A DNA stretch of 64,000 bases. Origin: a bacterium (GTDB lineage Bacteria; Verrucomicrobiota; Kiritimatiellia; CAIKKV01; CAITUY01). The notes under the pieces are model-generated. The model was not told the origin of the DNA and did no database searches. It saw only the letters and a list, made by a program, of their open reading frames with translations. Location: NCBI GenBank assembly GCA_037141135.1, contig JBAXDB010000001.1, forward strand, positions 9,191 through 73,190, read 5' to 3'. Positions 15,866 through 51,436 of the stretch are shown here, one piece after another; within the stretch, counting starts at the first letter, position 1, and each line of letters opens with the position of its first letter. A program made the position numbers and the translations under genes.

Positions 15866-16377
15866 CGGCGTTCCTCCTTTTGAAGTTTTTCAATGAGCCC
15901 GAGCAATTTGCCAGGGGTGATATGCGAGTGAATGATGCCGTCAATCGCCACCACAGGCGCAAGGGCACACTGTCCGAAGCAGGCGACCGTCCGCACCGTA
16001 AAGATTTTGTCAGGGGTGGTGAACGAGGCTTCCTCATCTTCCTCAAAGTCGCTGAATCCCAATTTTGCGGCCGCCTCCATGAGGAGGGTGCGTGAGCCGC
16101 GGGTGTGGCAGGCGGTGCCCCTGCAAACCACGATCGTGTGTTTGCCCTGTGGCTTAAGGTTGAAGAACGAATAAAAAGTGGCCACCGAATAAACCTGAGA
16201 CATCGGTATGCCCGCTTTTTTTGCGACCTCCTTGAGCGTGTCCTCGCTTAAGTGGTTATGCGCGTCGTTGACTTGAAGCTCCTCGAGAATACTGAGCAGG
16301 CTGCCAGGCTTCCCCTGATATTTATGGATCGCCGATTCAAGCGCAGGAGTTCTCTTCTTTTCTGGTTTTTTCTTCAT
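15862..16377 (-). CDS. hndA: NuoE-like 2Fe-2S thioredoxin-like hydrogenase subunit (HndA/HydC)
   Basis: VCRGTACHTRGS...VACFGQCALAP is the NuoE/24 kDa 2Fe-2S motif. It overlaps hndC by 4 nt. Confidence 0.85.
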   Translation of the reverse strand: MKKKPEKKRTPALESAIHKYQGKPGSLLSILEELQVNDAHNHLSEDTLKEVAKKAGIPMSQVYSVATFYSFFNLKPQGKHTIVVCRGTACHTRGSRTLLMEAAAKLGFSDFEEDEEASFTTPDKIFTVRTVACFGQCALAPVVAIDGIIHSHITPGKLLGLIEKLQKEERR

Positions 16378-16389
16378 ACTTTCCCCTTT

Positions 16390-16405
16390 TTGTCGATGTG
16401 GACAA
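16390..16405. promoter_or_regulatory. palindrome TTGTCGATGTGGACAA 13-28 nt upstream of the hndA start, in the AT-rich divergent hyd promoter region
   Basis: It is a perfect 5-bp inverted repeat (TTGTC/GACAA) with a 6-nt spacer. It sits in the 161-bp AT-rich region between divergent hndA and hydG. The TTGT...ACAA ends resemble Rex-type half-sites but the spacing is shorter. Confidence 0.3.
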
Positions 16406-16538
16406 ATCTACGAAAGTTAGGACATTATCAGGAAATATATTTGACATCAATCCGTAACGTTAAATATTTAACTATTTTTAATTTGATCTCGATGAATGTT
16501 TCCCATGATAATGTAGCCGCAAAAAGTCAGGAAAATAT

Positions 16539-17942
16539 ATGGACGATATACAGATGGGGAAGAGTATAATTTGCGAAGCTGACATCGAGCGGCAGTTACT
16601 CGCGGGGCAGGGTGAGGATGCTGGTAGGATCCGTGAGATACTGGCCAAGGCGGCTCTGGCCCAGGGGTTGACAGATGCGGAAGTGGCGGTTCTGATGGAG
16701 ATCCGGAGCCCTGCGTTGGCCCACGAGTTGTTTCAGACTGCCAGTCAGGTCAAGGACATCATTTACGGCAAGCGGCTGGTTATTTTTGCCCCGCTCTACA
16801 TTTCGAACCTGTGCGGTAACGAATGTCTTTACTGCGCGTTCCGGGCGCGCAACACGGCTATCAAACGCCGCGCGCTCACGCAGGAGGAGATTGCCCACGA
16901 GGTGAAAGCCCTGGTGGAGCAGGGCCACAAACGCTTGTTGGTGGTGGCTGGCGAATCTTATCCGCGGGAGGGGTTCGACTATGTGCTCAAGGCCATCGAA
17001 ACCGTCTACAGTGTCAAGTCCGGCCGCGGCGAGATCCGTCGCGTTAACGCGAACGTGGCGCCCCTCACGATCGATGAATTCAAGCAACTCAAAGCCGCCA
17101 AGATCGGCACTTACCAGCTTTTCCAGGAGACGTATCACAGGGCCACCTACAGCCGGATGCACGTGGCGGGCCGCAAGAAGGATTTCGACTGGCGCGTGAC
17201 GGGGATTGATCGTGCCATGACGGCGGGCATCAATGATGTGGGGATCGGCGTGCTGCTTGGTCTCTGCGACTGGAAGTTCGAGGTTATGGCCCTGCTCCAG
17301 CACATCCATCATCTGGAAAAGGAATTCGGGGTGGGGCCCCACACGATCAGTGTGCCGCGTTTGGAGCCTGCCACTGGATCGGATGTTTCGATTCAGCCGC
17401 CGAGCCCGGTGACCGATGACGATTTCCGCAAGATTGTCGCCATTCTCCGCCTGGCCGTTCCCTATACGGGCATCATCATGTCCACCCGCGAAAACGCGCA
17501 GATGCGGCGCGAAGGGTTTGATCTGGGCATCTCGCAGATCTCAGCGGGCAGCCGCACGGATCCGGGCGGCTATTCGACGGATAGCTCCGGCGAAGTAAAC
17601 GGTCAGTTCTCATTGGGTGACCACCGCTCCCTCGATGAGGTGATTGCAGATGTGGCCGCGCTGGGCTACATTCCATCTTTCTGCACCGGGTGTTACCGGC
17701 TTGGGCGAACCGGCGCGGATTTCATGGACATGGCCAAACCCGGTGAGATCAAGTCGCATTGCGGCCCCAACGCGGTCTCGACCTTTGCCGAATACCTGCT
17801 GGACTATGCTTCGCCCGTTACCCGCGAGGCCGGGTTCCAGTTGATCGATAAGGTTATCGGTGATATGACCGGCGTGGCGAAAGAACGGTCCGAACGCCTC
17901 CTGAAGCAAGTCAAGGAAGGGAAGCGGGACGTTTACTGCTAA
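16539..17942 (+). CDS. hydG: [FeFe]-hydrogenase maturase HydG (radical SAM tyrosine lyase)
   Basis: The ThiH-like radical SAM motif CGNECLYCAF is present, with the C-terminal auxiliary-cluster motif CTGCYRLGRTG...HCGPN. Confidence 0.9.
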   Translation: MDDIQMGKSIICEADIERQLLAGQGEDAGRIREILAKAALAQGLTDAEVAVLMEIRSPALAHELFQTASQVKDIIYGKRLVIFAPLYISNLCGNECLYCAFRARNTAIKRRALTQEEIAHEVKALVEQGHKRLLVVAGESYPREGFDYVLKAIETVYSVKSGRGEIRRVNANVAPLTIDEFKQLKAAKIGTYQLFQETYHRATYSRMHVAGRKKDFDWRVTGIDRAMTAGINDVGIGVLLGLCDWKFEVMALLQHIHHLEKEFGVGPHTISVPRLEPATGSDVSIQPPSPVTDDDFRKIVAILRLAVPYTGIIMSTRENAQMRREGFDLGISQISAGSRTDPGGYSTDSSGEVNGQFSLGDHRSLDEVIADVAALGYIPSFCTGCYRLGRTGADFMDMAKPGEIKSHCGPNAVSTFAEYLLDYASPVTREAGFQLIDKVIGDMTGVAKERSERLLKQVKEGKRDVYC

Positions 17943-38925: not shown

Positions 38926-40188
38926 ATGAACGCGATCATTCTATCGATTGGTGATGAGCTAATTCTCGGGCAGACCTTGGACTCCAATTCCGCCTGGTTA
39001 AGTTCCCGTTTGGCTGATCGCGGTATTATCCCCTTATATCATAAAACGATAGCTGACAATCTGGACGCCACTGTTAGTGCCCTGCGACTAGCCTGTGAAG
39101 AGACGGATTTGGTGATTGTTACAGGTGGGTTGGGGCCGACGATGGATGATCTTACCCGGCAGGCGTTTGCTGCCATGATCAATAAACCCCTGGATTTGCA
39201 TCCTCCATCACTGGAGCGGATGCGTGCCTTTTTTAAGCAGCTTGGGCGCGATATGCCGGCATCAAATCGAATCCAAGCCCATGTTCCACGAGGCGCGGAA
39301 GTCCTTGATAATGACTGGGGAACGGCGCCGGGTATCAAACTTAAAGTTGGGAAAACGTTGCTTTTTGCATTACCCGGTGTGCCCATCGAGATGGAAAAGA
39401 TGGCTGAGCGTTATATTTTCCCTCTTTTCGAGCGGAGTTCCGGCAGCGTCGTAGTGGTGGAGTCGCTCTCCACCTTCGGTGCAGGGGAATCTGTGGTTGC
39501 CGAGAAATTGGGTGAAATCATGCGGCGTGATCGCAATCCGCTGGTGGGGACAACCGTTTCCGGCGGGGTGGTGACGATCCGGCTGCGGAGTGAGGCGCCT
39601 ACATCCGATTTGGCGCAGAAACAACTTACCCGGACGGTTGCGCTGGTGAAGGAGCGGCTGGGGGTACTTGTTTTTGCTGAAGGGAAGCAGACGTTAGCAG
39701 AAGTTGTGGGGCAATTGGCGAAGGCAAAATCCAAGCGTCTGGTCACCGCTGAAAGCTGTACCGGCGGGTTGGTGGGCAAGATGCTGTCTGACGTTCCGGG
39801 AGCCAGTGCCTGGTTTGATGGCGGGTGGGTGACGTATTCAGATGCCATGAAGGTCCAGGCACTGTCAGTTCCAGCCACGTTAATTGAGCAGGGAGGGGCC
39901 GTGAGTGAATCGGTTGCCTGCGCGATGGCGGAGGGGGCTCTGAAGAAATCAACGGCTGATTTATCGGCGGCGCTGACAGGTGTTGCCGGTCCGGATGGTG
40001 GGACTGAGGAGAAGCCTGTAGGAATGGTCTGGATCGCCATTGGGTGCAGGCATGGGGCACGGATTGAGACCAAGGCCGAGTGCTTTCGATTTCCTGGCGG
40101 TCGTGAGATGATACGTGACCGGGCCGCCAAAACCGCTCTCAATTTGCTGCGCCTTGAACTGCTGAAAGTCGTTGGTTACCGGTTGTAA
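38926..40188 (+). CDS. cinA: competence/damage-inducible protein CinA (MoCF-like domain plus PncC nicotinamide-nucleotide amidohydrolase domain)
   Basis: MNAIILSIGDELILGQTLDSNSAWL is the CinA N-terminus, and the C-terminal CinA/PncC domain is TAESCTGGL. Confidence 0.85.
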   Translation: MNAIILSIGDELILGQTLDSNSAWLSSRLADRGIIPLYHKTIADNLDATVSALRLACEETDLVIVTGGLGPTMDDLTRQAFAAMINKPLDLHPPSLERMRAFFKQLGRDMPASNRIQAHVPRGAEVLDNDWGTAPGIKLKVGKTLLFALPGVPIEMEKMAERYIFPLFERSSGSVVVVESLSTFGAGESVVAEKLGEIMRRDRNPLVGTTVSGGVVTIRLRSEAPTSDLAQKQLTRTVALVKERLGVLVFAEGKQTLAEVVGQLAKAKSKRLVTAESCTGGLVGKMLSDVPGASAWFDGGWVTYSDAMKVQALSVPATLIEQGGAVSESVACAMAEGALKKSTADLSAALTGVAGPDGGTEEKPVGMVWIAIGCRHGARIETKAECFRFPGGREMIRDRAAKTALNLLRLELLKVVGYRL

Positions 40189-41698
40189 CACTGTTGCTGC
40201 GCAGAGGACCAACGGCAGGGGTTGGTTTGCGGTGTTCCCGTTTCGGGATGCCGTAAAGCATGGCGATCCGGCGATTGGCTTCCGGGAGCATGGCTTTATC
40301 CATCACAAGATCCAGTCCCAGGCTTTTTAGCCGAATGCGGGTGATTCCTTCATCTTGATCCCGGATGGCAAAGACGTCCTTCATACTTGTCACCGGCTTG
40401 TTGTTGAGTTGGGTGACCAACTCATCGCGAATTTCCTGATATCCGACATTGATTGGATCTGGAAGGACGCCGGTGAGGATGATGACCCGCTCGCCTGGTT
40501 TGGTGGGGGCCTGCGCACGTGTCAGGTAAAGATCGACCAGGCGCGGGTTGGATCGAACCATCCACTGCGCTCCGTAGGCGAGTAGATAATCGGCAGAAAG
40601 CTCCCGGAAGATAAAGCCGCCTTCCACGAGATATTCGGCCTGTTCACCCTCAATATTCAGTGGAACCAGGGATTTTGAGTCGCTATAGGCGTCCAGCTTG
40701 AGTTGCACCTCTTCACTTTTCTTGTTTCGCCAGCGTGTGATGGTGATGATATCGCCGGGGTGCCGGCGGCCGGATATTTGATGGATCAGAACCAGTCGCC
40801 CGAAGTCTGGATCGGTATAATACCCCTGCGAATCAACGGCGTATCCATCCCATTTCAATATGACATCTCCTGACTGCAGAACAGCAGCAGCACCGCTCCC
40901 GGGAATGGTTCTCAAGACCAGTACACCTTGGCGGTCATCGGTGAGTCCATAAAACTTCCGGGCGGCCGGAGCGACCAGGGGAGCCCAGGTCATCCCGGCA
41001 ATCGCAATGCCGCGATAGGGTGGGGCGCTGACATCATCGACGAACCGTTTCAGGATGGCGGTCGGCAGCACTAGACTGGTCTGGGTGGCGTCGTCATATT
41101 CCATGATCAGACCGGCCAACTTTCCCTCGTGGTAGGCAGGTGACCCCACACGCTCCAGTTTGAGGTCGGTCAGGGCTTGAAAGGTTAAAATGCTGAGGGG
41201 CGCATTGGGAAGTTGCGCGATCTGAATCGCGGTAATTCGGCCTTCCCCGCTTTGCTGCTGGCCCGCCGCGTCGAATTGAACGAGTTGGATTTTGGCGCCC
41301 GTCCTGAGGGGGGCACCCCACTGGACCGGGACATAGCCAGTGGTTGGGGCCGCCAACAGGGCGGCATTGATCCGGGGATCGGCTTCAATCACCCGGGCCG
41401 TGGTTTTGCTGGCACCGCCAGGAGGCTGTATCTCTATCAGTGTGGCATTTCTGACGAGATCCTCGGTGGTGATCAACTGGCCGTCCGTGATAACGATTCC
41501 ATAGCCGGTACGTGATTCCGGACGGGCTTTTTTCCATGGAAAATGGGAGTCAAATTTCTGGACGGTGACCAGGACTTCGACCACGCTGGCGGGAAGGCTG
41601 TTGGTTTCGGCCCGGGTCGCCGGAGTGATCAACACCGCCAGACCCAGCGCTAAAACCGTTTGTCTTATAAATTGAGAGATGTGCGAGGTGAGTTTCAT
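40139..41698 (-). CDS. S1C protease-like pseudoenzyme with PDZ domain; a paralog of the upstream DEG/Nma111-like protease that has lost the His/Asp/Ser triad
   Basis: It is clearly homologous to the protein at 41698..43221 (SVVEVLVTVQKFDSHFPW versus SVVKIFVTVQQEDFRQPW). TNAHVV is replaced by TTEDLV, DIAVL by INAALL, and GNSGGP is absent. It has a signal peptide. The start overlaps the upstream stop (TAATG). Confidence 0.7.
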   Translation of the reverse strand: MKLTSHISQFIRQTVLALGLAVLITPATRAETNSLPASVVEVLVTVQKFDSHFPWKKARPESRTGYGIVITDGQLITTEDLVRNATLIEIQPPGGASKTTARVIEADPRINAALLAAPTTGYVPVQWGAPLRTGAKIQLVQFDAAGQQQSGEGRITAIQIAQLPNAPLSILTFQALTDLKLERVGSPAYHEGKLAGLIMEYDDATQTSLVLPTAILKRFVDDVSAPPYRGIAIAGMTWAPLVAPAARKFYGLTDDRQGVLVLRTIPGSGAAAVLQSGDVILKWDGYAVDSQGYYTDPDFGRLVLIHQISGRRHPGDIITITRWRNKKSEEVQLKLDAYSDSKSLVPLNIEGEQAEYLVEGGFIFRELSADYLLAYGAQWMVRSNPRLVDLYLTRAQAPTKPGERVIILTGVLPDPINVGYQEIRDELVTQLNNKPVTSMKDVFAIRDQDEGITRIRLKSLGLDLVMDKAMLPEANRRIAMLYGIPKREHRKPTPAVGPLRSNSVTTGNQRLSAVQGAAN

Positions 41699-43221
41699 TA
41701 CTTGGACTCCTGCGACTGGACATGACTGAAGGCGGGAATGCTGTATTGCGGCAGAATCTGGGCATCAGCGTCCACGGTTTGGGTGGCATCCATGATCAGG
41801 GGATCATCCCGTCCTTCAAACCGGAACACGTGGAAGCCCTGCGATGTTTTTTTCAAGGCCTCTGGAATATCGCTGATGTTACGGATGGGCTGACCATTGA
41901 TCGAGGCTAGAATCTGGTTGAAGTGACTGGCGCAATAAGTGTTGATGGGATGAGGAAGGCGGCCGGTGAGCAGGACGAACTGGGTGCGGTCCTTAATCAG
42001 GTTATCCAGTTTGGCATAGCGAGCGGTGTAGAGCAGGTGTTGGGCTGCCGGGGTATTGAGTTCGGCGCCAAGGGTGGCCAGATAACCGCGACTGAGCGGG
42101 GAAAATATCAGACCGCCGACAATATAGTATTCCGACTTTTCGTCGTAGGTTTGACGAAAGATGAAGAGATCCGGCTTGCGCTTGAGTGGAACCACGATGG
42201 CGAGCGTATTATCCTCGCGCCAGATGGTGAAGTTTATGGTCTCGGTGCACTGTTTGCGCTCGATGAATTCACTATATTCAACGCTATTGCCATCCAGCCG
42301 GACCGAGCCGTCGTTGGCAATGGAGTGGCCGTCAATGGAAAGCAGGACGTCGCGTGGCTTGAGCAGGCCTGCGGCGGCGCCATAGGGATCCACATTGGCA
42401 ACTACCACGCCGCTTGCGCTGGCGGGAAGCTTGAGATTGGCGCGCAGTGCCGGGTTTTCCGTGCGCAGATAATCAACTCCCATTTCCGGATAACCATCAT
42501 AAACGCCGTCTTCAATATCTTTTAGAAAGTGCTCAATCACGGGAAGGGGGATGGTGTAGCCGATGTTTTGAGCGCCGACAATTCCCTGGAAGGCAATGCC
42601 AATCACCTTATTATTGAAGAGGACCGGCCCGCCGCTGTTACCGGGATTAATGGCGGCATCCACCTGCATTACAAGATGTGAATCGATGGAACTGTGGGTA
42701 TAGAGGTTGTAGTCAATCCGGGAAACGACGCCCTTGGTGAGGGAAAGTCGACCGCCTCCCATTGGATAGCCGAGCACAATCACGGCGTCATTTAAACTGG
42801 GGAGGGTGGAGCCGAATGTCAGGGGTTTGGTCCCCTCAAAAAACGATTCATCTTTAACTTCCAGCACGGCGATGTCGCAGTCGTGGGCGATAAAGCGAAC
42901 CTTGGCCGGGAATTTCCTGGTATCGCCTTCTCGCTGCACCTCGATAAAGCGTGCATCGGAGACAACGTGGGCGTTGGTCAGCAGGCGTTTCCCTTTAATG
43001 ATAAAGCCTGAGCCGCTGCCGCTCATAGGCGGGCTGGACTGCCATGGTTGACGAAAATCCTCCTGTTGCACAGTAACGAATATTTTGACAACAGATTGGC
43101 GCTGCTGGTCAATCCCTGCGATGCTTGCAAAGGGGAGGCCCATGGCGACGGCCAGTAGAAGACCCCGGAGGTTATTATAACGAAGATGTTTTGATAATTG
43201 CATGGGTGCGACAATATCCAA
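41698..43221 (-). CDS. trypsin-like S1C serine protease with PDZ domain, DEG2/DEG9/Nma111-like
   Basis: TNAHVV (His), DCDIAVL (Asp) and GNSGGPVL (Ser) are present. KVIGIAFQG...NIGYTIP..IEHFL is characteristic of plant DEG2-type and yeast Nma111-type proteases. It has a signal peptide. Confidence 0.75.
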   Translation of the reverse strand: MDIVAPMQLSKHLRYNNLRGLLLAVAMGLPFASIAGIDQQRQSVVKIFVTVQQEDFRQPWQSSPPMSGSGSGFIIKGKRLLTNAHVVSDARFIEVQREGDTRKFPAKVRFIAHDCDIAVLEVKDESFFEGTKPLTFGSTLPSLNDAVIVLGYPMGGGRLSLTKGVVSRIDYNLYTHSSIDSHLVMQVDAAINPGNSGGPVLFNNKVIGIAFQGIVGAQNIGYTIPLPVIEHFLKDIEDGVYDGYPEMGVDYLRTENPALRANLKLPASASGVVVANVDPYGAAAGLLKPRDVLLSIDGHSIANDGSVRLDGNSVEYSEFIERKQCTETINFTIWREDNTLAIVVPLKRKPDLFIFRQTYDEKSEYYIVGGLIFSPLSRGYLATLGAELNTPAAQHLLYTARYAKLDNLIKDRTQFVLLTGRLPHPINTYCASHFNQILASINGQPIRNISDIPEALKKTSQGFHVFRFEGRDDPLIMDATQTVDADAQILPQYSIPAFSHVQSQESK

Positions 43222-43394: not shown

Positions 43395-45143
43395 TCAGAA
43401 AAAGGCAGCCGTAAGGATAGCCTCGGCTGCGTTTGTCCAGGTCTTTGAGATTGCCCGGCCTTTCGGCAGTTGAATCATCAGCCGCCGGGAGGCTATTTTG
43501 TTTGCAAGCGAGACCGAGGCATACCGGTCAATCAGATGCGGTGGGGCGTGGTGAATGATGGCAATCAGGTTATCCAACAAATCCAAAGGTTCTTCGGTTT
43601 GCGGAACCAGTACAAATTGAAAAAGGTTGTCCGGTAATGTCCGCATGGCCTGCTGGATGAATTTCGTGAGGGGTGCCCGCTGTGTGAACAGGTCAGGTCC
43701 TTTGAAAAGAAAAGCCCGGCGGGTTTGAGTGCCTGAAAGTTTTTCCTTCCCGTGGTCCGTTACTGTGATTTGTTCGGGAAAAAGGTCGAGCTTCCTTCCG
43801 ATGAATTGCGGAGTGGGCACATCCGAGCGGAGTTTGGGGTGCCGGGCGACAAAAGTTTCAATAGCCTGAAAGGCCGGGTGATCCATGCTGGACGTTTTTG
43901 TCACTGCATAAGGGGGGAGGGGCAGCGATTGGATACCCCACTCATGTTGCCGGTCTCTCAATTCGGTGCCTGGCAGGAGCAGGGTTTGCAGGCATTGGAT
44001 GTTGGTGCTTCTCAATTTGAGTGCCCATCTCAATGACTCCTTGACCTCTTCGACTCGCTGAAGCGGGAGCCCATACATGATGTCCACGGTAACTTTGATG
44101 CCGCGTCGGGTCAAGAGGTTGATCCCCGCATCCAACCGGGACAGGGTGGTCGGGCGGCGGATAGCCTTGAGAACGGTGGCATCCCGGCTTTGCACACCGA
44201 CTTCAATCTCCACAAAATGGGCGGCAACCATCAGGCCGGCCTCTTCCGTGGTCAAACGACTGGCATTGAGTTCGGCAAAAAAGGAGAGGGCGCCGTCCTT
44301 ATTGAAGGCGGCAAGTCGGGTCAGAATCTCATGGAATCTGGGATGGGCATTAAAGGTGGGATCCACAAAGCGGATTTCGCGGGCTCCGATTTTTTTCAAG
44401 GCGTCAATTCGTGCCATGATGGCGTCGGGGTTAAGAAACGACATGGAACGGCGCAGGTGCGGGTAGCGGCAGTAAGTGCAGCGCATGGGACAGCCCCGCG
44501 AGGTTTCCAGGTAGGCCATGCCCTTGGCGTCAGGCCGGCAGGCGGCATGGCCGGGTGGTGGGATTTGGTGCGACAGTTCGACGGGACGGGGGATGGTATG
44601 CCCCCAGCGGTAGCCTTTGGGTGTCCGGAGCGCGACAGAGGAATAATTCACCGGTTTTCGGGTTCGGAAGGACCGGAGCAAGGCGGGAAAAACCACCTCT
44701 CCTTCGCCAACCGTGATGGCGTCGGCAATGGTTTTTTTGAACAGGAATGGATGCGAATAGGCCGCCTCGGGCCCGCCCAAAAGGATGCGGGTATGAGGGC
44801 GGTGCTTTTTCAAGGCCTGCATCAAACGCAGGGTTCTTTCAATGTTCCAGAGATACATGGTGCAGGCGATGAGGTCGGGCTTTCTGATGAGAATCTCCGC
44901 AAGCATGGTCGGATTGTCATGTGAGCAAGCAGTGGCGGGAAGCTGGAGAAATTCATAGTAAGCATCTTCCCCCGCCCGTTCGGCCGCGTATTGTAGATAG
45001 GTGGCAGCAAGTGGGATGTTTTCAGTATCCCCATGAATATCATTATCCAATTGGGGTAGCTGGAGAAATAAGATTTTCTTGCGTTGTGCCATAGCCGTGC
45101 TTTTAGCATTGGCCATTGAGAATGGCAAGGAGGGGTAGGACAT
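43395..45143 (-). CDS. B12-binding domain radical SAM protein (class B radical SAM) with ~200 aa C-terminal extension
   Basis: An N-terminal B12-binding-like domain is followed by CPMRCTYCRY (CxxxCxxC). The start is uncertain: 45143, or the internal Met at 45116 or 45092. Confidence 0.7.
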   Translation of the reverse strand: MSYPSLPFSMANAKSTAMAQRKKILFLQLPQLDNDIHGDTENIPLAATYLQYAAERAGEDAYYEFLQLPATACSHDNPTMLAEILIRKPDLIACTMYLWNIERTLRLMQALKKHRPHTRILLGGPEAAYSHPFLFKKTIADAITVGEGEVVFPALLRSFRTRKPVNYSSVALRTPKGYRWGHTIPRPVELSHQIPPPGHAACRPDAKGMAYLETSRGCPMRCTYCRYPHLRRSMSFLNPDAIMARIDALKKIGAREIRFVDPTFNAHPRFHEILTRLAAFNKDGALSFFAELNASRLTTEEAGLMVAAHFVEIEVGVQSRDATVLKAIRRPTTLSRLDAGINLLTRRGIKVTVDIMYGLPLQRVEEVKESLRWALKLRSTNIQCLQTLLLPGTELRDRQHEWGIQSLPLPPYAVTKTSSMDHPAFQAIETFVARHPKLRSDVPTPQFIGRKLDLFPEQITVTDHGKEKLSGTQTRRAFLFKGPDLFTQRAPLTKFIQQAMRTLPDNLFQFVLVPQTEEPLDLLDNLIAIIHHAPPHLIDRYASVSLANKIASRRLMIQLPKGRAISKTWTNAAEAILTAAFF

Positions 45144-45362: not shown

Positions 45363-47399
45363 ATGAAGGACATTGCAGTTAGCGACGTTCGGAATTTTGT
45401 TTTATTGGGTCATACGGCGAGTGGGAAAACGACGTTGGCGGATGCGTTATTATATAAAATGGGCGCCAGTGACAGGCTGGGTTCGGTGGATCAGGGGTCC
45501 AGTCTGGGTGATTACACTGATGAGGAAAAAGCCCGCAAAACAACCATTTATGCAAAGTCTTTCTGTGGCACCTATAAAAGTTCCGATGGCCACAACATGG
45601 ACATTGTTTTCTGTGATACTCCCGGGTATGCCGACTTTTTTGGACAGGTCATTCAGGCGAGTCGTATTGCCGGCGCCGCCCTGATCACCGTGGATGCGCA
45701 TGCCGGTATTCAGATTGGCACCATGAAAGCCTGGAAGCAGGCCTCGACGCTGGATATCCCCCGCGCCATTGTGGTGACGGGACTGGATCGCGAGAATTCG
45801 CCTTTTGATAAGGTCATGGCTGATATCAAGGCGACCTGGGGTGATCGCTGTATTCCCGTTCTGATGCCGCTGCCAGATAACAGCGGGGTGGTGGATGTGT
45901 TGGCGGCGACCAATGTGCCGGACGAGGTCAGTGAGGCATTAACGGAGGCCAAGAACGCCCTGGTGGAAATGGCCGCGGAGACGGATGACACCCTGATCGA
46001 GAAATATCTTGCAGGTCAACCTTTGTCCGCCCGGGAAATTGCCGATGGCTTGCGGCATGCCGTGTTCGATCGCAAATTGGTTCCGGTATTTGCCTGCATG
46101 GCCCTTAAGAACATCGGGGTGGGTGAACTGCTGGATGGAATTGCCCGTTTCTTTCCATCTCCTGCTGATCGTCCTGTGAAGGATGCCGACGGCAAAGCCA
46201 TTGATACGGCTCCCACCGCCCCGTTTGTCGGTTATGTCTGGCGTACGGTTAATGATCCCTTCATTGGCCACATGAGTTTCGTCTATGTCTGTGGGGGGAC
46301 GTTGAAACCCGACATGGAAGTGATGAATATCAACAAGGATCAAAAGGAACGTGTAGTCCAGTTTGTATCGTTGAACGGCAAGAAGCAGACGCCGATCACC
46401 GAGGCGGAAGCTGGTGATATCGTGGCGATTTCAAAGCTGAAGGTCACGACTCTTGGCGATGCGCTTTGTCAGGCTCCGGCGAAGAGCACCTTCGCCCCGT
46501 TTTCCTTTCCAAATCCTGTGATGTGGTATGCCGTGGCAGCCAAAACACAAGGGGATGAGGACAAGATCGGTACCGCCTTGCATAAACTGGCGGAAGATGA
46601 TCCCACGATTCATGTGGAGCGCCATGCAGACACCCATGAGACGATTATTGCTGGAATGGGTGATACCCATCTGGCGGTGGCCGTGGAGCGCATGAAGAAG
46701 CGGAACAATGTCGAAGTGACCATGAGCACGCCGAAGGTGGCTTATAAAGAAACGGTGACCGGACGCGGCGAAGGGCATTACAAGCACAAGAAGCAGTCTG
46801 GCGGGCGCGGTCAGTATGGTGAGGTTTACCTGAAGGTCGAGCCGCTTCTGGAGGGGGATGAAGATATTTTTGTGGATGCGCTTGTCGGTGGGTCGATTCC
46901 CCATAATTTCGTGCCGGCCGTTCATAAGGGTGTGGTTGATGGGATGACGAAGGGCTCGCTGGCTGGGTGCCCGGTGGTCCGGATTAAATCCACCGTTTAT
47001 GACGGATCCTACCATGATGTTGATTCCTCGGAAGTGGCATTTAAGATTGCCGCCGGCCGTGCGTTCCGTGAGGCGATGAGTAAAGCCAAGCCTGTCCTGC
47101 TGGAGCCGATCATGTCGGTAAAGATTACGATCCCCGACCACTTTATGGGGGACATCAACGGAGATATGAGCCATCGGCGCGGTCGGATTGTGGGGATGGA
47201 TGCAGGGGATGGCCTGCAGGTTATCACGGCCGATATTCCCCAGTCGGAACTGTTCAATTATTGTGCCGAACTGCGCAGTATGACCGGGGGCCGGGGTTCG
47301 TTTGAGATGGCATTTGCGAGGTATGATGTCGTGCCGGCTTCGGTGGCCCAGAAGATTATTGCGGCCGCTGCCAAGAATAAAGAAGAGGAGCAGGATTAA
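45363..47399 (+). CDS. elongation factor G family protein, divergent paralog (His-to-Tyr change in G3, NKxD replaced by TGLD)
   Basis: It has full EF-G architecture at 678 aa. G1 is GHTASGKTT and G3 is DTPGYADF (canonical DTPGHVDF). G4 is VVTGLDR (canonical VNKMDR). The domain IV loop SYHDVDSSE is conserved. Confidence 0.8.
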   Translation: MKDIAVSDVRNFVLLGHTASGKTTLADALLYKMGASDRLGSVDQGSSLGDYTDEEKARKTTIYAKSFCGTYKSSDGHNMDIVFCDTPGYADFFGQVIQASRIAGAALITVDAHAGIQIGTMKAWKQASTLDIPRAIVVTGLDRENSPFDKVMADIKATWGDRCIPVLMPLPDNSGVVDVLAATNVPDEVSEALTEAKNALVEMAAETDDTLIEKYLAGQPLSAREIADGLRHAVFDRKLVPVFACMALKNIGVGELLDGIARFFPSPADRPVKDADGKAIDTAPTAPFVGYVWRTVNDPFIGHMSFVYVCGGTLKPDMEVMNINKDQKERVVQFVSLNGKKQTPITEAEAGDIVAISKLKVTTLGDALCQAPAKSTFAPFSFPNPVMWYAVAAKTQGDEDKIGTALHKLAEDDPTIHVERHADTHETIIAGMGDTHLAVAVERMKKRNNVEVTMSTPKVAYKETVTGRGEGHYKHKKQSGGRGQYGEVYLKVEPLLEGDEDIFVDALVGGSIPHNFVPAVHKGVVDGMTKGSLAGCPVVRIKSTVYDGSYHDVDSSEVAFKIAAGRAFREAMSKAKPVLLEPIMSVKITIPDHFMGDINGDMSHRRGRIVGMDAGDGLQVITADIPQSELFNYCAELRSMTGGRGSFEMAFARYDVVPASVAQKIIAAAAKNKEEEQD

Positions 47400-47408
47400 G
47401 TCCAGCTG

Positions 47409-48317
47409 GTGAATCCCTTTGTTGCATCCATGACGCGTTGTGAGTTGTGTCCCAGGCGATGCGGGGTCAACCGGGCGGAAGGACAGTTGGGGTATTGCCA
47501 GGCGGGTGGGACGGTTGAGGTCTATCGATACGGGTTACATCACGGTGAAGAGCCGCCGGTCTCGGGGGTGAGAGGCTCCGGGACGGTGTTTTTCAGCCGT
47601 TGTACGTTAAGTTGTTTGTACTGTCAGAATTATCCCTGGAGCCAGGAGGGACAGGGCCGGGCGGTGACGGTGGATGAGATGGCGGAAATGCTGAGGTCAC
47701 TGTGCCGGGATGGGTGTCATAATTGGAACCTGGTGAGCCCGACGCCCTGGTTGCCATGGATTCATGAGGCCTGGAGCCGGGTGGTTGCGGATGGACTCTC
47801 GCGGCCAATCGTGTATAACACGAGCGGATTTGAGAGGGTTGAGCAGCTGCGTGCGCTGGCTGGCTGGGTAAATGTCTATTTGACGGATTTGAGGTATGCG
47901 CAGGATACGTCGGCGAAGGCCGGTTCAGATTGTGCCGGTTATGTCGAGGCGGCGCGGGCGGCGCTGTTGGAAATGTGGAGCCAGACGGGCCCGTTGAAAA
48001 TGGATGAGGAGGGCGTGGCGGAACAAGGGACGATTTGCCGGTTGCTGGTGTTGCCGGGACGCGCCGCTGAGGCGGTGGCCAATCTGGAATGGTTGGCGGC
48101 AGCCGTGGGGACGGAGATCCCAGTGAGTGTCATGGCCCAGTATACGCCGGCATACAAGGCTCTGAATGAGGCGCCGTGGGATCGACGCCCGACACAGGAT
48201 GAGTACGGGGATGTGGTTGAGGCAATGGAGCGGTTGGGATTTTCTGAAGGTTGGATTCAGGAATATGAAACCCCGTCGCAGGACAGTTTGGTTGGATTCA
48301 AGATGAGCCCGGGTTAA
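47409..48317 (+). CDS. radical SAM protein, PflA-like; N-terminal CxLCPxxC(x9)GxC plus CTLSCLYCQN pattern resembles AmmeMemoRadiSam-system radical SAM enzymes
   Basis: TRCELCPRRCGVNRAEGQLGYCQ precedes the CxxxCxxC motif. It starts 10 nt after the EF-G paralog stop (GTG start). Confidence 0.55.
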   Translation: MNPFVASMTRCELCPRRCGVNRAEGQLGYCQAGGTVEVYRYGLHHGEEPPVSGVRGSGTVFFSRCTLSCLYCQNYPWSQEGQGRAVTVDEMAEMLRSLCRDGCHNWNLVSPTPWLPWIHEAWSRVVADGLSRPIVYNTSGFERVEQLRALAGWVNVYLTDLRYAQDTSAKAGSDCAGYVEAARAALLEMWSQTGPLKMDEEGVAEQGTICRLLVLPGRAAEAVANLEWLAAAVGTEIPVSVMAQYTPAYKALNEAPWDRRPTQDEYGDVVEAMERLGFSEGWIQEYETPSQDSLVGFKMSPG

Positions 48318-48354
48318 TCGGGTTTGATTAAATATCAGGAAAGCGAGGAATGAG

Positions 48355-49113
48355 ATGAGCGGTCATAGTAAGTGGAAGACAATTCAGCACAAGAAGGGCG
48401 CGGCGGATGCCAAGCGTGGTAAGATTTTCAGCAAGATGGCGAAGGAATTGATGGTTGTGGCCAAGGCCGGAGGCGGGAGCCCCGATACCAATGCCGCCCT
48501 GCGCAACCTGATCGTCCGATGCAAGGCAGCCAGTATGCCCAATGAAAACATTGACCGTGCCATCAAGAAGGGTACCGGTGAATTGGCGGCGGAAATCATG
48601 GAGGACATCACCTACGAAGGTTTTGCCGCCGGCGGCGTCGGGGTGGTGGTCAAGGTGTTGACTGATAATAAAAATCGGGCAGCGGCAGAACTGCGTCACA
48701 TTTTCTCCAAGAACGGCTCGAGCCTTGCGGCGCCGGGTTCGGTGTCACGCGGCTTCAAGCGGCGTGGCCAGATTTTCGTGGATGCGAAGACCATTGAGGA
48801 GGACAAGTTGATGGATATCGTCCTGAACGCCGGTGCGGATGACATGAGCCAGGATGGCGAGCAGTTTGAGATTCTCACCGATCCCAATGCGTTTCAAGTG
48901 GTTCTGGACGCCCTTGAGAAGGCTGGCGTAAAAACTTCCGAGGATTCAGCCATCCGACTTGTGCCCGAGACATATGTGTCCATTACCGACAAAACCGTGG
49001 CCAAGGCGGTTATGAAGTTTGTGGAGACGCTGGAAGATAATGATGATGTACAGGACGTGTACACCAACATGGATATGGACGACAGCGTTCTGGCACTGAT
49101 CTCAGCGGAATAA
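48355..49113 (+). CDS. yebC: YebC/PmpR family DNA-binding transcriptional regulator
   Basis: MSGHSKWKTIQHKKGAADAKRGKIFSK is the hallmark N-terminus. Confidence 0.9.
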   Translation: MSGHSKWKTIQHKKGAADAKRGKIFSKMAKELMVVAKAGGGSPDTNAALRNLIVRCKAASMPNENIDRAIKKGTGELAAEIMEDITYEGFAAGGVGVVVKVLTDNKNRAAAELRHIFSKNGSSLAAPGSVSRGFKRRGQIFVDAKTIEEDKLMDIVLNAGADDMSQDGEQFEILTDPNAFQVVLDALEKAGVKTSEDSAIRLVPETYVSITDKTVAKAVMKFVETLEDNDDVQDVYTNMDMDDSVLALISAE

Positions 49114-49610
49114 TGCGCGTTCTCGGGATAGATACCTCGTTACGTTCAACTGGCGTGGGCGTGGTGGAGTCCTGTGCCGGCAAAATGGTGGCGATCGAGT
49201 ACGGTCGGATTCACAATGCCGACCGTCTTTCTTTGTCGGAGTGTCTCCGGCGGATTGATGGCGGGATCCGCGAGATGATCGCGCGGACGAAGCCGGAGTT
49301 GGCGGCCATAGAGGATATCTTTTTCGCCAAAAACGCCCGGACGGCCATGGTGCTTGGTGAAGCCCGGGGCGTGGTGATTGCCGTGTGCGCAACCTCCGGG
49401 ATTCCGGTGTACGAATATGCGCCGCGCCGGGTCAAGCAGTCTGTCACCGGGATTGGATCCGCCGACAAATTGCAGGTGCGTAAAATGACCATGGTGGTTC
49501 TGGGTTTGAAAGAAGAGCCGCAGGAGGATGCCGGGGATGCATTGGCGATCGCCCTGTGCCATCTCAACAGCCGGAATCCAATCGCTGAACTGGCCCCGAA
49601 ACCAATCTAG
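49113..49610 (+). CDS. ruvC: crossover junction endodeoxyribonuclease RuvC
   Basis: MRVLGIDTSLRSTGVGVVE is present, together with the acidic catalytic residues. It is coupled to yebC (ATGA-type overlap). Confidence 0.9.
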   Translation: MRVLGIDTSLRSTGVGVVESCAGKMVAIEYGRIHNADRLSLSECLRRIDGGIREMIARTKPELAAIEDIFFAKNARTAMVLGEARGVVIAVCATSGIPVYEYAPRRVKQSVTGIGSADKLQVRKMTMVVLGLKEEPQEDAGDALAIALCHLNSRNPIAELAPKPI

Positions 49611-49638
49611 GATTGGCGACAACCGCGAGGGACTATTT

Positions 49639-50232
49639 ATGATTACATTCCTTGAGGGAATTCTTGACGAGAAAGAACCTACACACGTCGTGCTTAATGT
49701 TGGCGGGGTGGGGTATGAAGTGGTGATTTCCCTGAACAGTTATGATCGTCTGCCAGCGCCGGGTGAAAAGGTGCGGTTGTTGACCCATGATCACATCCGG
49801 GAAGATGAGCATAGGCTGTTCGGGTTCATGACGGCGGATGAACGGCGGGTGTTCACCCTGTTGCTGGGGGTGTCCGGTATAGGGCCCAAGATTGCTCTCT
49901 CCGCGCTCAGCGGAATGACAGTCCGTGAAATCAAGGTGGCTATCAAGGATGGCGATGTGAAGAGGCTTAGCTCCATTTCCGGGATAGGCAAAAAGACGGC
50001 CGAACGCATGGTCATCGAACTACGTGACAAATTCGGTGCCGGAGAAATCCTGGCGGCCTCAACCACGGGGCAGTCCGAAACGGATGTCAAATTGCGTGAC
50101 GCGATTCTGGCGCTGATTTCACTGGGTTACAAACGCACTGAGGCCCAGGAACTGGTGCTGCGGGTTATCAATCAGCCCAACATGGCGGGTGCGACAGTTG
50201 AAGACATTGTGAGAAAATCTCTGGCAGGGTAA
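49639..50232 (+). CDS. ruvA: Holliday junction DNA helicase subunit RuvA
   Basis: MITFLEGIL...VLNVGGVGYEV is present, with HhH motifs (GIGPKIA, GIGKKTAERMV). The ATG at 49639 is preferred over the ORF-track start at 49528. Confidence 0.9.
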   Translation: MITFLEGILDEKEPTHVVLNVGGVGYEVVISLNSYDRLPAPGEKVRLLTHDHIREDEHRLFGFMTADERRVFTLLLGVSGIGPKIALSALSGMTVREIKVAIKDGDVKRLSSISGIGKKTAERMVIELRDKFGAGEILAASTTGQSETDVKLRDAILALISLGYKRTEAQELVLRVINQPNMAGATVEDIVRKSLAG

Positions 50233-50257: not shown

Positions 50258-50794
50258 ATGGCAGAACTAAAGGGATCGAAGACGGAAAAGAATTTGCAGG
50301 ACGCATTTGCTGGTGAATCCCAGGCCCGCAACAAGTACTCCTATTTCGCCTCGACGGCGAAGAAGGAAGGCTATGAGCAGATCGCGGCGATTTTCCTGGA
50401 AACAGCCGAACAGGAAAAGACGCATGCCAAATTGCATTTTAAGGCCTTGAGTGGCATTGGGGACACGCTTGCGAATTTGAAGGCGGCGGCAGGGGGTGAG
50501 CATGAGGAGTGGACGGAAATGTATCCTCGCATGGCCAGGGAAGCCCGCGCGGAAGGTTTTGACGAGATTGCCCGGCTATTTGAAGGGATTGCCAAGATTG
50601 AGAAGGAGCACGAGGAACGTTATAAAGCCCTGCTGAAGAACTTGGAAGAGGGCAAAGTGTTCAAGAAGGATGTTAAGGTCAAATGGCGTTGCCGTGAGTG
50701 TGGCTTTGTCTACGAAGGAACCAACGCCTTGTCAAAGTGCCCGGTTTGTGAGCATCCGCAAGCCTTTTTCGAGATCACCCCGGCAAATTATTGA
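50258..50794 (+). CDS. rbr: rubrerythrin (diiron ferritin-like domain plus C-terminal rubredoxin-like CxxC...CxxC domain)
   Basis: EAQEKTHAK and the ExxH diiron motifs are present, with the C-terminal CRECGFVYEG...CPVCEHP. Confidence 0.9.
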   Translation: MAELKGSKTEKNLQDAFAGESQARNKYSYFASTAKKEGYEQIAAIFLETAEQEKTHAKLHFKALSGIGDTLANLKAAAGGEHEEWTEMYPRMAREARAEGFDEIARLFEGIAKIEKEHEERYKALLKNLEEGKVFKKDVKVKWRCRECGFVYEGTNALSKCPVCEHPQAFFEITPANY

Positions 50795-50833
50795 TCGATC
50801 TGAATAAATCCTGCGTCTCATTCGTCTAAATTC

Positions 50834-51436
50834 ATGGAGGCAATTGTTTCAATCGAGCTTCTTGAACGTGCCAGGAAGGGCGATATGGACGCTTTTCTGG
50901 CATTGTTCGAGGAGTCACGTGCAACGATTCATGCGGTGGCGTGGCGGTTGGTTGGGCCGGATGAAGCTGAAGATGTTGTGATGGAAACCTATCTGCGGGC
51001 CTGGAAGTCGGTCCCCGGCTTCACAGGGCGGTCCAGTGTAAGGACATGGTTGTGCAGGATTGCGCATAACTGCTCGGTGGACTGGTTAAGGAAACGGCGC
51101 CATGTGGTTCAGCCGCAAGACTTTGGAGAGGATGATGAGTCGGGGACTGGGGGCGGTGAGGGGGGGCAATTTGCTGATACCAGCCAGCGTGCCCCTTCCG
51201 AGGTTATGGCAGGAGCTGAATTGCAGGTTGCGATTGATTCGGCCTTGGAAACAGTCTCTCCCGAGCATCGTGTGGTGTTATTATTGAGATTTTCGGATGG
51301 TTTGAGTTACTCCGAAATTGCGGAGGCCACCGGGGTATCGATCGGTACTGTCATGTCCAGGCTGTTTAATGGGCGACGTAAACTTATTAAGGCACTTGCG
51401 AACCTTGGCATAAAGACGTCAGGAGGGTGGCTATGA
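50834..51436 (+). CDS. RNA polymerase sigma-70 factor, ECF subfamily
   Basis: Region 2 (VVMETYLRAWKS) and region 4 HTH (LSYSEIAEATGVSIGTVMSRL) are present. Confidence 0.85.
   Translation: MEAIVSIELLERARKGDMDAFLALFEESRATIHAVAWRLVGPDEAEDVVMETYLRAWKSVPGFTGRSSVRTWLCRIAHNCSVDWLRKRRHVVQPQDFGEDDESGTGGGEGGQFADTSQRAPSEVMAGAELQVAIDSALETVSPEHRVVLLLRFSDGLSYSEIAEATGVSIGTVMSRLFNGRRKLIKALANLGIKTSGGWL

What the first reader, a model, noticed from the sequence alone, without database searches (positions are those of the whole stretch)
45363..47399. EF-G paralog with His-to-Tyr change in the catalytic G3 motif and loss of NKxD
It has full EF-G domain organisation, including the conserved domain IV tip (SYHDVDSSE). 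However G3 is DTPGYADF, so the catalytic His that activates the water for GTP hydrolysis is Tyr. G4 is TGLD instead of NKMD, losing the guanine-specificity determinants. The G1 P-loop is intact. This predicts a ribosome-binding factor that binds but poorly hydrolyses GTP, or that uses another nucleotide, not a standard translocase. A radical SAM gene starts 10 nt downstream.
Basis: partly seen in the sequence, partly recalled or inferred. Interest (0 to 1): 0.6.

Follow-up and report, generated by a model that had tools for sequence, protein, structure and literature searches.

The report
EFG II-type elongation factor G paralog
This gene encodes a member of the already described "EFG II / EF-G2" family of second-copy elongation factor G proteins, in which tyrosine in place of the catalytic histidine is the family norm, so the feature is real but ordinary for its family.

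Summary
ORF 45363-47399 (+) encodes a 678-aa protein with all five EF-G domains, G3 = DTPGYADF, G4 = TGLD, an intact Walker-A P-loop and EF-G-like domain IV tip loops.

It is not an oddity of this gene. It is a typical member of the EFG II (EF-G2) subfamility described by Margus 2011 and Atkinson 2015:
- It hits NCBIfam NF009381 at 806 bits. The family archetype, T. thermophilus EF-G2 (PDB 1WDT), hits it at 810 bits.
- It carries 5 of 6 EFG II diagnostic residues and lies outside the EFG I clade.
- Among its 150 nearest 50%-identity cluster representatives, the "catalytic" position is Tyr in 88, Phe in 24 and His in only 2.
- 1WDT itself reads DAPGYGDF / TKLD. M. smegmatis EF-G2 is published with His to Tyr and TKLD.

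What is particular to this Kiritimatiellia/Lentisphaeria clade is Lys to Gly in G4. TGLD is near-invariant in 119 sequences and the guanine-specifying Asp is kept. The clade also shares the gene order EFG II, (radical SAM), yebC, ruvC, ruvA.

The most likely function is a slow, weakly hydrolysing or non-hydrolysing alternative translocase or stress factor working beside a canonical EF-G. I could not check for that canonical EF-G here.

Verdict: new member of a known kind, low interest.

The parts
45363..47399 (+). EFG II (EF-G2)-type elongation factor G paralog, 678 aa. Identical to NCBI MEI7879271.1, 'MAG: elongation factor G [bacterium]'.
   Evidence: ORF. Five EF-G domains. NF009381 at 806 bits (cutoff 583) and TIGR00484 below its cutoff. 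Exact database match.
45408..45434 (+). G1 / P-loop GHTASGKTT. EFG II signature: Gly16 where EFG I has Ala, and Leu25 follows where EFG I has Thr. Ala19 replaces the monovalent-cation Asp.
   Evidence: G16, H17, G21, K22 and T23 are conserved in 118/119 clade members.
45534..45548 (+). G2 / switch I RKTTI. This is a relaxed form of the trGTPase RGITI motif. The Mg-coordinating Thr/Ser is kept.
   Evidence: Position 61 is T93/S26. The relaxed G2 is an EFG II hallmark.
45615..45638 (+). G3 / switch II DTPGYADF. Tyr89 (45627-45629) sits at the position of the catalytic His.
   Evidence: alignment. Y114/F4/S1 in the clade. Y88/F24/H2 in 150 family representatives.
45777..45788 (+). G4 TGLD in place of NKxD. 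Asn to Thr also occurs in T. thermophilus and M. smegmatis EF-G2 (TKLD). Lys to Gly is specific to this clade. Asp is retained.
46800..46820 (+). Domain IV loop 1, GGRGQYG, preceded by the EFG II-typical KK (residues 476-477).
   Evidence: Near-invariant in the clade. K476 and K477 match EFG II type II positions 471/472.
47007..47033 (+). Domain IV loop 2, SYHDVDSSE. This is the EF-G-like tip that reaches the decoding centre.
   Evidence: H551, V553, D554, S555 and S556 are 119/119.
47409..48317 (+). PflX-like radical SAM protein (activase-type CxxxCxxC plus an N-terminal Cys motif). Probably co-transcribed. Function unknown.
   Evidence: Pfam Radical_SAM. No NCBIfam family above cutoff. Sources name homologs 'putative pyruvate formate lyase activating enzyme'. 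Present between EFG II and yebC in 47/70 related loci.
48355..49113 (+). YebC/TACO1-family protein. It follows the EFG II gene in 69/70 related loci.
49113..49610 (+). RuvC. Its start overlaps the yebC stop by one base.
   Evidence: (Pfam RuvC in an ortholog locus).
49639..50232 (+). RuvA.

Best explanation
The gene encodes an EFG II (EF-G2)-type paralog of elongation factor G from an uncultured freshwater Kiritimatiellia bacterium (PVC group).

Shown here:
- It has the full five-domain EF-G architecture.
- It belongs to the same profile family as T. thermophilus EF-G2 and carries the EFG II diagnostic residues.
- Its nucleotide-binding core (GxxxxGKT, switch I Thr/Ser, DxPG, G4 Asp) and its domain IV tip loops are under strong purifying selection.
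- The hydrolysis apparatus is remodelled. Tyr replaces the catalytic His. Ala or Gly replaces the monovalent-cation Asp. Thr replaces both hydrophobic-gate Ile residues. TGLD replaces NKMD.

Inferred from characterised family members:
- It binds GTP as a conformational switch, docks at the ribosomal factor-binding site and inserts domain IV into the 30S A site like EF-G.
- It hydrolyses GTP slowly or not at all. It therefore acts as a slow, energy-sparing alternative translocase or a stress-phase ribosome-binding factor, alongside a canonical EF-G encoded elsewhere.
- Loss of the G4 Asn and Lys should lower nucleotide affinity without changing guanine specificity.
- It is probably co-transcribed with a PflX-like radical SAM gene, yebC and ruvC-ruvA.
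For: Architecture.

Family membership:
- NF009381 scores 806 bits for this protein and 810 bits for 1WDT EF-G2. TIGR00484 is below its cutoff for both.
- Margus type I positions Gly16, Leu25, Thr295, Gly339 and Lys358 are all in the EFG II state. Type II positions match in 6 of 7.
- In an NJ tree the five EFG I references are monophyletic in 200/200 bootstraps and the window protein lies outside them.
- Tyr/Phe at the His position and the GHxxxGKT P-loop are the rule in the 150 nearest representatives.
- The 1WDT chain reads GHAGSGKTT / DAPGYGDF / TKLD.

Purifying selection: motif and domain IV conservation in 119 sequences.

Function of relatives:
- M. smegmatis EF-G2 (Tyr98, TKLD) has minimal ribosome-dependent GTPase activity, no recycling activity and a stress role. 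H88Y nearly abolishes GTPase activity in M. smegmatis EF-G1.
- B. thetaiotaomicron EF-G2 is non-essential, strongly induced on carbon limitation, and enables translocation without GTP hydrolysis.

Co-occurrence with a main EF-G: EFGII occurs with EFG or spdEFG1/2 in the published tables.

Gene order.
Against: - No biochemistry exists for this clade.
- T. thermophilus EF-G2 carries the same Tyr and TKLD, yet is reported to have GTPase and translocation activity. Weak hydrolysis therefore cannot be read from the motif alone.
- I could not verify a canonical EF-G in this or any related genome.
- EFG II functions differ between lineages, so transfer of function at 38% identity is uncertain.
Confidence: 0.7

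Rival explanations
1. It is a GTPase-competent EFG II. Despite Tyr89 it hydrolyses GTP on the ribosome by an alternative catalytic arrangement, as reported for T. thermophilus EF-G2 and as in GTPases that carry a hydrophobic residue at the catalytic position. It would then work as a reasonably active second translocase.
For: - 1WDT EF-G2 has DAPGYGDF / TKLD and is reported to have intrinsic and ribosome-dependent GTPase activity plus poly(Phe) or translocation activity.
- Switch I, the P-loop His17 and the G' region are well conserved in the clade.
Against: - This clade additionally lacks the G4 Lys.
- M. smegmatis EF-G2, with the same Tyr, has minimal GTPase activity, and H88Y nearly abolishes GTPase activity in M. 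smegmatis EF-G1.
- Both hydrophobic-gate positions and the monovalent-cation Asp are changed.
Confidence: 0.22
2. It is the only EF-G of these organisms, that is, the housekeeping translocase of Kiritimatiellia/Lentisphaeria, running without a catalytic His.
For: - A canonical fusA could not be looked for.
- The gene is vertically inherited across two classes and sits in a housekeeping gene cluster.
- The domain IV tip is EF-G-like.
Against: - In 305 genomes a single EF-G gene was always EFG I.
- In the rows of Atkinson's table that were retrieved, EFGII accompanies EFG or spdEFG1/2. These include the PVC members Opitutus and Isosphaera. The one exception is the M. smegmatis row, which lists EFGII without EFG although EF-G1 exists.
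- The protein evolves as fast as YebC (mean identity 66.3% against 66.5% over 72 loci), unlike a core EF-G.
- It is not next to rpsL-rpsG.
Confidence: 0.04
3. The altered G4 switches nucleotide specificity, so that the protein uses ATP or XTP, or the protein is a nucleotide-free pseudo-GTPase.
For: The Asn and Lys of NKxD are replaced (TGLD) and G5 is poorly conserved.
Against: - The G4 Asp, which reads the guanine N1/N2, is 119/119.
- GKT, DxPG and the switch I Thr/Ser are near-invariant. That pattern is not expected for a protein that no longer binds GTP.
Confidence: 0.03
4. The EFG II protein, the radical SAM enzyme and YebC form one functional module. For example, the radical SAM enzyme might modify the factor or the ribosome, and EFG II might cooperate with the anti-stalling factor YebC.
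For: - There is a 9-nt spacer to the radical SAM ORF.
- The radical SAM gene is present in 47/70 related loci and in 20/20 close relatives. yebC is present in 69/70.
- A 44%-identical EFG II also lies near yebC, with a different gene in between.
- YebC family proteins act on ribosomes stalled at polyproline (PMC12234827, PMC11990639).
Against: - The radical SAM gene is absent from a third of the loci.
- Six other EFG II lineages show no yebC or radical SAM neighbour.
- yebC-ruvC is a common gene pair on its own.
- The pattern is also explained by inherited synteny within one PVC lineage.
Confidence: 0.1
5. It is a Tet(M)/Tet(O)-like ribosomal protection protein.
For: It has the same overall domain organisation. 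There is a weak NCBIfam tet_protect hit.
Against: - tet_protect scores 272 bits against a cutoff of 775.
- Identity to plasmid Tet(M), Tet(O) and Tet(S) is 24-25%.
- Tet(M) is the most distant reference in the tree data.
- The domain IV loops are of the EF-G type.
Confidence: 0.01

Closest known systems
T. thermophilus EF-G2 (EFG-2; PDB 1WDT/2DY1), archetype of the EFG II subfamily
   Same: - Same best NCBIfam model, NF009381, at 810 against 806 bits.
- Same five domains.
- Same P-loop type (GHxxSGKTT followed by Leu).
- Thr-type G2.
- Tyr at the catalytic His position.
- Thr for Asn in G4.
- KK before domain IV loop 1.

   Different: - Only 38% identical overall.
- 1WDT keeps the G4 Lys (TKLD), whereas this protein has TGLD.
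- Domain IV loop 1 is GGHGQYG in 1WDT and GGRGQYG here.
- Gene context differs.
M. smegmatis EF-G2 (PDB 9K0Z/9K10)
   Same: - EFG II member in Atkinson's classification.
- His to Tyr and NKMD to TKLD are explicitly described for it.
- Non-canonical P-loop.
[quoted passage not shown]

   Different: - Its P-loop, G2 and G5 are much more degenerate (GPSGG; none of the G2 or G5 residues conserved). Here His17 and the switch I Thr are kept.
- It scores lower against the query than canonical EF-G does (409 against 489 bits).
B. thetaiotaomicron EF-G2 (BT2167; NF058620; PDB 7UVP/8DMF)
   Same: - EFGII in Atkinson's table.
- It is an alternative, non-essential EF-G that sustains translocation without GTP hydrolysis and is induced on carbon limitation. 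This is the best-documented physiological model for the family.
   Different: - NF058620 scores 539 bits against a cutoff of 1000 here, so this protein is not an ortholog of the Bacteroides subgroup.
- The Bacteroidetes G2 variant YGYSV is not present.
- I did not see its G3 residue.
Canonical EF-G (EFG I, fusA; TIGR00484)
   Same: - Domain organisation.
- Domain IV tip loops.
- 50-55% identity in domains IV and V.
   Different: - Below the TIGR00484 cutoff.
- 30% identity in the G domain.
- AHIDAGKT, RGITI, DTPGH and NKMD are all altered.
- Not in the str operon.
- Outside the EFG I clade.

Membership tests
EFG II / EF-G2 subfamily (Margus 2011; Atkinson 2015; NCBIfam NF009381) | Full EF-G five-domain architecture (G with G', II, III, IV, V). 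| tested here: met
   Pfam GTP_EFTU, EF-G_D2, EFG_III, EFG_IV and EFG_C are all above their cutoffs.
EFG II / EF-G2 subfamily (Margus 2011; Atkinson 2015; NCBIfam NF009381) | Best profile match is the model that also captures the archetype T. thermophilus EF-G2, above its curated cutoff. | tested here: met
   NF009381 scores 806.2 bits (cutoff 583) for the window protein and 809.6 bits for 1WDT EF-G2.
EFG II / EF-G2 subfamily (Margus 2011; Atkinson 2015; NCBIfam NF009381) | Type I diagnostic residues (1WDT numbering): Gly16, Leu25, Ser61, Thr291, Gly333, Lys/Arg352. | tested here: met
   The window protein has Gly16, Leu25, Thr295, Gly339 and Lys358 in the EFG II state. Position 61 is Thr, as in 1WDT itself; in the clade it is T93/S26.
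EFG II / EF-G2 subfamily (Margus 2011; Atkinson 2015; NCBIfam NF009381) | The trGTPase G2 consensus RGITI is relaxed to xxx(S/T)x. | tested here: met
   RKTTI here, and RK(I/T)(T/S)I across the clade.
EFG II / EF-G2 subfamily (Margus 2011; Atkinson 2015; NCBIfam NF009381) | Falls outside the EFG I clade in a phylogeny. | tested here: met
   NJ tree of 76 sequences and 671 columns. The five EFG I references are monophyletic in 200/200 bootstraps, and the window protein is on the other side with 1WDT EF-G2. The method is simple and the deep order within EFG II is unresolved.
EFG II / EF-G2 subfamily (Margus 2011; Atkinson 2015; NCBIfam NF009381) | Encoded outside the str operon and accompanied by a main EF-G (EFG I or spdEFG1/2) in the same genome. 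| tested here: inconclusive
   Outside the str operon: met. The accompanying main EF-G could not be tested.
EFG II / EF-G2 subfamily (Margus 2011; Atkinson 2015; NCBIfam NF009381) | G4 NKxD conserved (as stated in 2011). | tested here: not met
   TGLD here. The criterion itself no longer holds for the family. Among 150 representatives Asn is 109, Lys 89 and Asp 135, and 1WDT has TKLD.
Canonical EF-G (EFG I, TIGR00484 equivalog) | Score at or above the curated cutoff. | tested here: not met
   588.6 bits against a cutoff of 659.4.
Canonical EF-G (EFG I, TIGR00484 equivalog) | Canonical motifs AHIDAGKT, RGITI, DTPGH and NKxD. | tested here: not met
   GHTASGKT, RKTTI, DTPGY and TGLD.
Canonical EF-G (EFG I, TIGR00484 equivalog) | Located in the rpsL-rpsG-fusA(-tuf) operon. 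| tested here: not met
   The neighbours are a divergent B12-binding radical SAM gene upstream and radical SAM, yebC and ruvC downstream. E. coli provides the contrast.
Tet(M)/Tet(O) ribosomal protection proteins (NF012153) | Score at or above the curated cutoff and Tet-type domain IV loops. | tested here: not met
   271.9 bits against a cutoff of 775. Identity to Tet(M), Tet(O) and Tet(S) is 24-25%. The domain IV loops are of the EF-G type.
Functional guanine-nucleotide-binding switch (TRAFAC GTPase core) | Walker A GxxxxGK[ST], switch I Thr/Ser, DxxG and the G4 Asp are conserved. | tested here: met
   All are 118-119 of 119 in the clade, apart from T93/S26 at switch I. Actual binding and hydrolysis cannot be tested with these tools.

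The most novel reading that the evidence does not exclude
Kiritimatiellia/Lentisphaeria might have no canonical EF-G at all and translate with this His-less, Lys-less EFG II as their only translocase. I could not inspect any whole genome of the clade, so this is not excluded.

A milder novel reading is that EFG II, the PflX-like radical SAM enzyme and the anti-stalling factor YebC form a dedicated translation module in this lineage. I put that reading at about 0.1.
Probability: 0.04. Interest if true: 0.85.

Novelty: new member of a known kind. Interest (0 to 1): 0.2.

Why it matters
It matters little as a discovery. The protein belongs to a subfamily described in 2007-2015, and the His-to-Tyr change has been explicitly analysed in mycobacterial EF-G2.

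Three points are modestly useful:
1. With present-day metagenomic sampling, the catalytic His is absent from almost all sampled EFG II proteins (2 His in 150 representatives). The G4 Asn and Lys are far less conserved than reported in 2011.
2. A PVC clade has fixed TGLD, that is, no G4 Lys. This gives a natural variant for testing how much nucleotide affinity an EF-G-like switch needs.
3. Public annotation calls these proteins simply 'elongation factor G', which hides the paralogy.

Tried and rejected
1. Finding the canonical fusA of this lineage.
- None is in the window or in the 80 related genome loci (tblastn with T. thermophilus EF-G).
- No seed sequence from this lineage was available for the protein database, whose output is limited to the 120 best hits.
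- A literature search for Kiritimatiell* plus 'elongation factor G' gave 0 papers.
- Atkinson's and Margus's supplements contain no Lentisphaerae or Kiritimatiellia.

2. Other dead ends.
- Han 2023 (PMC9841332) is not held, so B. thetaiotaomicron EF-G2 properties are cited second-hand.
- Atkinson's consensus-alignment PDF was too garbled to read the EFGII switch II consensus.
- A PDB search with representative P0129 only returned canonical EF-G on top. It was useful only for the T. thermophilus EF-G sequence.
- The radical SAM protein has no informative PDB relative (E = 0.13 to PflA) and no NCBIfam family above cutoff.
- The exact radical SAM protein P0271 is not on record for contig look-up.

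3. Tested and limited: a general EFG II-yebC link. Six other EFG II lineages lack it. Only P0121 (same clade) and P0124 show it.

4. Not attempted: structure prediction. Homology is unambiguous, and the tool does not return side-chain geometry for Tyr89.
Full report
**Observation**

The ORF at 45363-47399 (+) is real. It starts with ATG and encodes 678 aa. Pfam finds the complete EF-G domain series above cutoff: GTP_EFTU, EF-G_D2, EFG_III, EFG_IV and EFG_C.

A HMMER alignment to T. thermophilus EF-G (2BM1) places DTPGYADF on DTPGHVDF and VVTGLDRE on FANKMDKT. The His-to-Tyr and NKMD-to-TGLD readings are therefore correct. The nucleotide coordinates of all motifs were verified by translation.

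The domain IV tip loops GGRGQYG and SYHDVDSSE are present. A radical SAM ORF follows after a 9-nt spacer if its GTG start at 47409 is used. An ATG at 47430 is the alternative start. The conserved MNPF N-terminus in homologs favours the GTG.

The protein is identical to NCBI MEI7879271.1, 'MAG: elongation factor G [bacterium]', on a 77-kb contig.

**Is it more than chance?**

Yes. The 120 best database homologs are 58-92% identical and come from Kiritimatiellia, Lentisphaerota and Victivallales MAGs. Of these, 118 were long enough to align; with the window protein they make the 119 sequences counted here:
- The catalytic position is Tyr in 114, Phe in 4 and Ser in 1.
- G4 is T (115), G (118), L (106), D (119).
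- The Walker A residues, DxPG, the switch I Thr/Ser and both domain IV loops are essentially invariant.

These are fixed, selected states of a clade.

**What it is**

The protein is not a canonical EF-G:
- It scores 588.6 bits on TIGR00484, whose cutoff is 659.4.
- It is 38% identical to T. thermophilus EF-G, and only 30% identical in the G domain.
- It does not lie next to rpsL-rpsG.

Its best NCBIfam model is NF009381 at 806 bits. I recalled the sequence of T. thermophilus EF-G2, the archetype of the EFG II subfamily. Its first 268 residues matched PDB chain 1WDT_A exactly. That protein also has NF009381 as its best model, at 810 bits, and also fails TIGR00484.

Margus et al. 2011 list residues that distinguish EFG II from EFG I. 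The window protein has Gly16, Leu25, Thr295, Gly339 and Lys358, all in the EFG II state. At the sixth position it has Thr, as 1WDT does. Six of the seven 'type II' positions also match.

In a neighbour-joining tree with 200 bootstraps, five EFG I references form a clade in 200/200 replicates and the window protein lies outside it. The references were E. coli, T. thermophilus, a Ralstonia megaplasmid copy, Embleya and Phocaeicola. The window clade groups with the three representatives that share TG(L/I)D in 200/200 replicates.

**Tyr is the family norm**

I scored the protein against 1.84 billion 50%-identity cluster representatives. The 150 best hits (36-55% identity) all have EFG II-type P-loops, and none has AHIDAGKT. 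At the catalytic position they carry Tyr (88), Phe (24), other residues (36) and His (2).

The solved structure 1WDT reads GHAGSGKTT / HRTTV / DAPGYGDF / VVVTKLDK. A 2026 preprint on mycobacterial EF-G states that in M. smegmatis EF-G2 the catalytic His88 is replaced by Tyr98 and NKMD by TKLD. It also reports that H88Y almost abolishes GTPase activity in EF-G1.

The part particular to this clade is Gly in place of the G4 Lys. Gly at that position occurs in 12 of 150 representatives, and the T-G-(L/I)-D form occurs only in the three closest representatives.

The 2011 statement that NKxD is conserved in EFG II no longer holds. In these representatives Asn is 73%, Lys 59% and Asp 90%.

**How it probably works**

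Shown: the parts needed to bind a guanine nucleotide and to switch conformation are conserved (P-loop, Mg-binding Thr/Ser, DxPG, G4 Asp). So is the domain IV tip that reaches the decoding centre, including the EFG II-typical Lys-Lys before loop 1.

Shown: the parts needed for fast ribosome-triggered hydrolysis are changed. These are the catalytic His, the monovalent-cation Asp (Atkinson 2015 notes Gly there in EFGII) and both hydrophobic-gate Ile residues.

Inferred from relatives: the protein binds the ribosome like EF-G and promotes or stabilises translocation with little or no GTP hydrolysis.
- M. smegmatis EF-G2 has minimal ribosome-dependent GTPase activity, no recycling activity and a stress-associated role.
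- B. thetaiotaomicron EF-G2 is classed as EFGII in Atkinson's table. It is non-essential, strongly induced on carbon limitation, and supports translocation without GTP hydrolysis.

A caveat applies. T. thermophilus EF-G2 has the same Tyr and is reported to have intrinsic and ribosome-dependent GTPase activity and translocation activity. The motif alone therefore does not decide the question. I give the 'still hydrolyses' variant about 0.2.

A change of nucleotide specificity is unlikely because the Asp is invariant. From general GTPase knowledge, loss of Asn and Lys should mainly weaken affinity. That point is inference.

**Genome context**

In 80 related loci from GTDB species genomes, 70 have at least 2.5 kb of sequence downstream. 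The EFG II gene is followed by yebC in 69 of these, ruvC in 68 and ruvA in 42. The radical SAM gene sits between EFG II and yebC in 47, including all 20 loci at 66% identity or more. The upstream B12-binding radical SAM gene is not conserved.

Six more distant EFG II lineages have no yebC or radical SAM neighbour. One lineage (P0124, 44% identity) has EFG II, pfkB, yebC.

The radical SAM protein is an uncharacterised PflX-like enzyme. Sources name its homologs 'putative pyruvate formate lyase activating enzyme', and it has no informative PDB or NCBIfam match.

YebC-family proteins are now known as translation factors for polyproline stalling. A functional link is therefore conceivable, but inherited synteny explains the data equally well.

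**What could not be done**

Published surveys speak against a sole EFG II:
- In 305 genomes a single EF-G was always EFG I.
- In the rows of Atkinson's table that I retrieved, EFGII accompanies EFG (Thermus, Bacteroides, Opitutus) or spdEFG1/2 (Isosphaera). The one exception is the M. smegmatis row, which lists EFGII without EFG although EF-G1 exists.
- The protein evolves at the pace of YebC (66.3% against 66.5% mean identity to the window copy over 72 loci), not at the pace of a core EF-G.

I leave 0.04 for the sole-EF-G reading.

**Verdict**

The gene is a new, unstudied member of the known EFG II / EF-G2 family, with a clade-specific G4 variant. Interest is low, about 0.2.

Noticed in passing
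window 45363-50232; loci L001-L080: The gene order EFG II, (radical SAM), yebC, ruvC, ruvA is conserved across Kiritimatiellia, Lentisphaerota and Victivallales MAGs. Of 70 loci with enough downstream sequence, yebC follows in 69 and ruvC in 68. YebC is a recently recognised anti-stalling translation factor.
   Followed up: partly
window 47409-48317; loci L001-L080: A PflX-like radical SAM gene sits between EFG II and yebC in 47 of 70 loci, including all 20 loci at 66% EFG II identity or more. It is absent from the rest. It has no characterised relative (best PDB hit PflA, E = 0.13).
   Followed up: partly
L085 (GCA_020719505.1, DYQF01000105.1) 2006-6260: A 44%-identical EFG II (P0124; DTPGYADF, TKAD) is followed by a PfkB-family kinase, then yebC, then an RNase H gene. 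This is a second EFG II-yebC neighbourhood with a different intervening gene.
   Followed up: no
representatives P0121-P0270: Across the 150 nearest EFG II representatives, the catalytic His is present in only 2. The G4 Asn, Lys and Asp are conserved at only 73%, 59% and 90%. This contradicts the 2011 statement that NKxD is conserved in EFG II.
   Followed up: yes
P0129, P0133, P0153: These three EFG II-type proteins exceed the TIGR00484 'equivalog' cutoff for canonical EF-G (690-755 bits against 659). P0129 and P0133 have Tyr/Phe at the catalytic position and non-canonical P-loops. P0153 keeps the His but has a non-canonical P-loop. Automated annotation therefore does not separate the paralogs. 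The window protein itself is named plain 'elongation factor G' at NCBI, and a 2016 MAG ortholog is named 'hypothetical protein'.
   Followed up: partly
window 43395-45143 (-): A B12-binding-domain radical SAM protein (582 aa) is transcribed divergently from the EFG II gene. Its best NCBIfam matches, all far below cutoff, are MJ_1487-type and PhpK-type methyltransferase families. It is not conserved at this position in relatives; there is only one weak hit, in L075.
   Followed up: partly
window 40139-43221 (-): Two tandem genes carry a C-terminal PDZ_3 domain. The second (41698-43221) has a trypsin-like HtrA/Deg-type protease domain. The first (40139-41698) has no recognised catalytic domain in Pfam.
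   Followed up: no
window 1-64000: GC skew is positive in 31 of 32 2-kb bins, and cumulative skew rises from 0 to 3.46. This suggests the whole window lies on one replichore with the + strand leading.
   Followed up: no
window 50258-51436 (+): Rubrerythrin and ECF sigma factor genes directly follow ruvA. Both are conserved in the closest relatives (L001, L002), which hints at an anaerobe's oxidative-stress context.
   Followed up: no
L025 (Lentisphaerae bacterium GWF2_57_35) 16122-17564 (-): A second, distant EF-G-family gene (26% identity to T. thermophilus EF-G over about 480 aa) lies about 4 kb downstream of the EFG II gene. It is probably RF3 or another trGTPase and was not identified.
   Followed up: no
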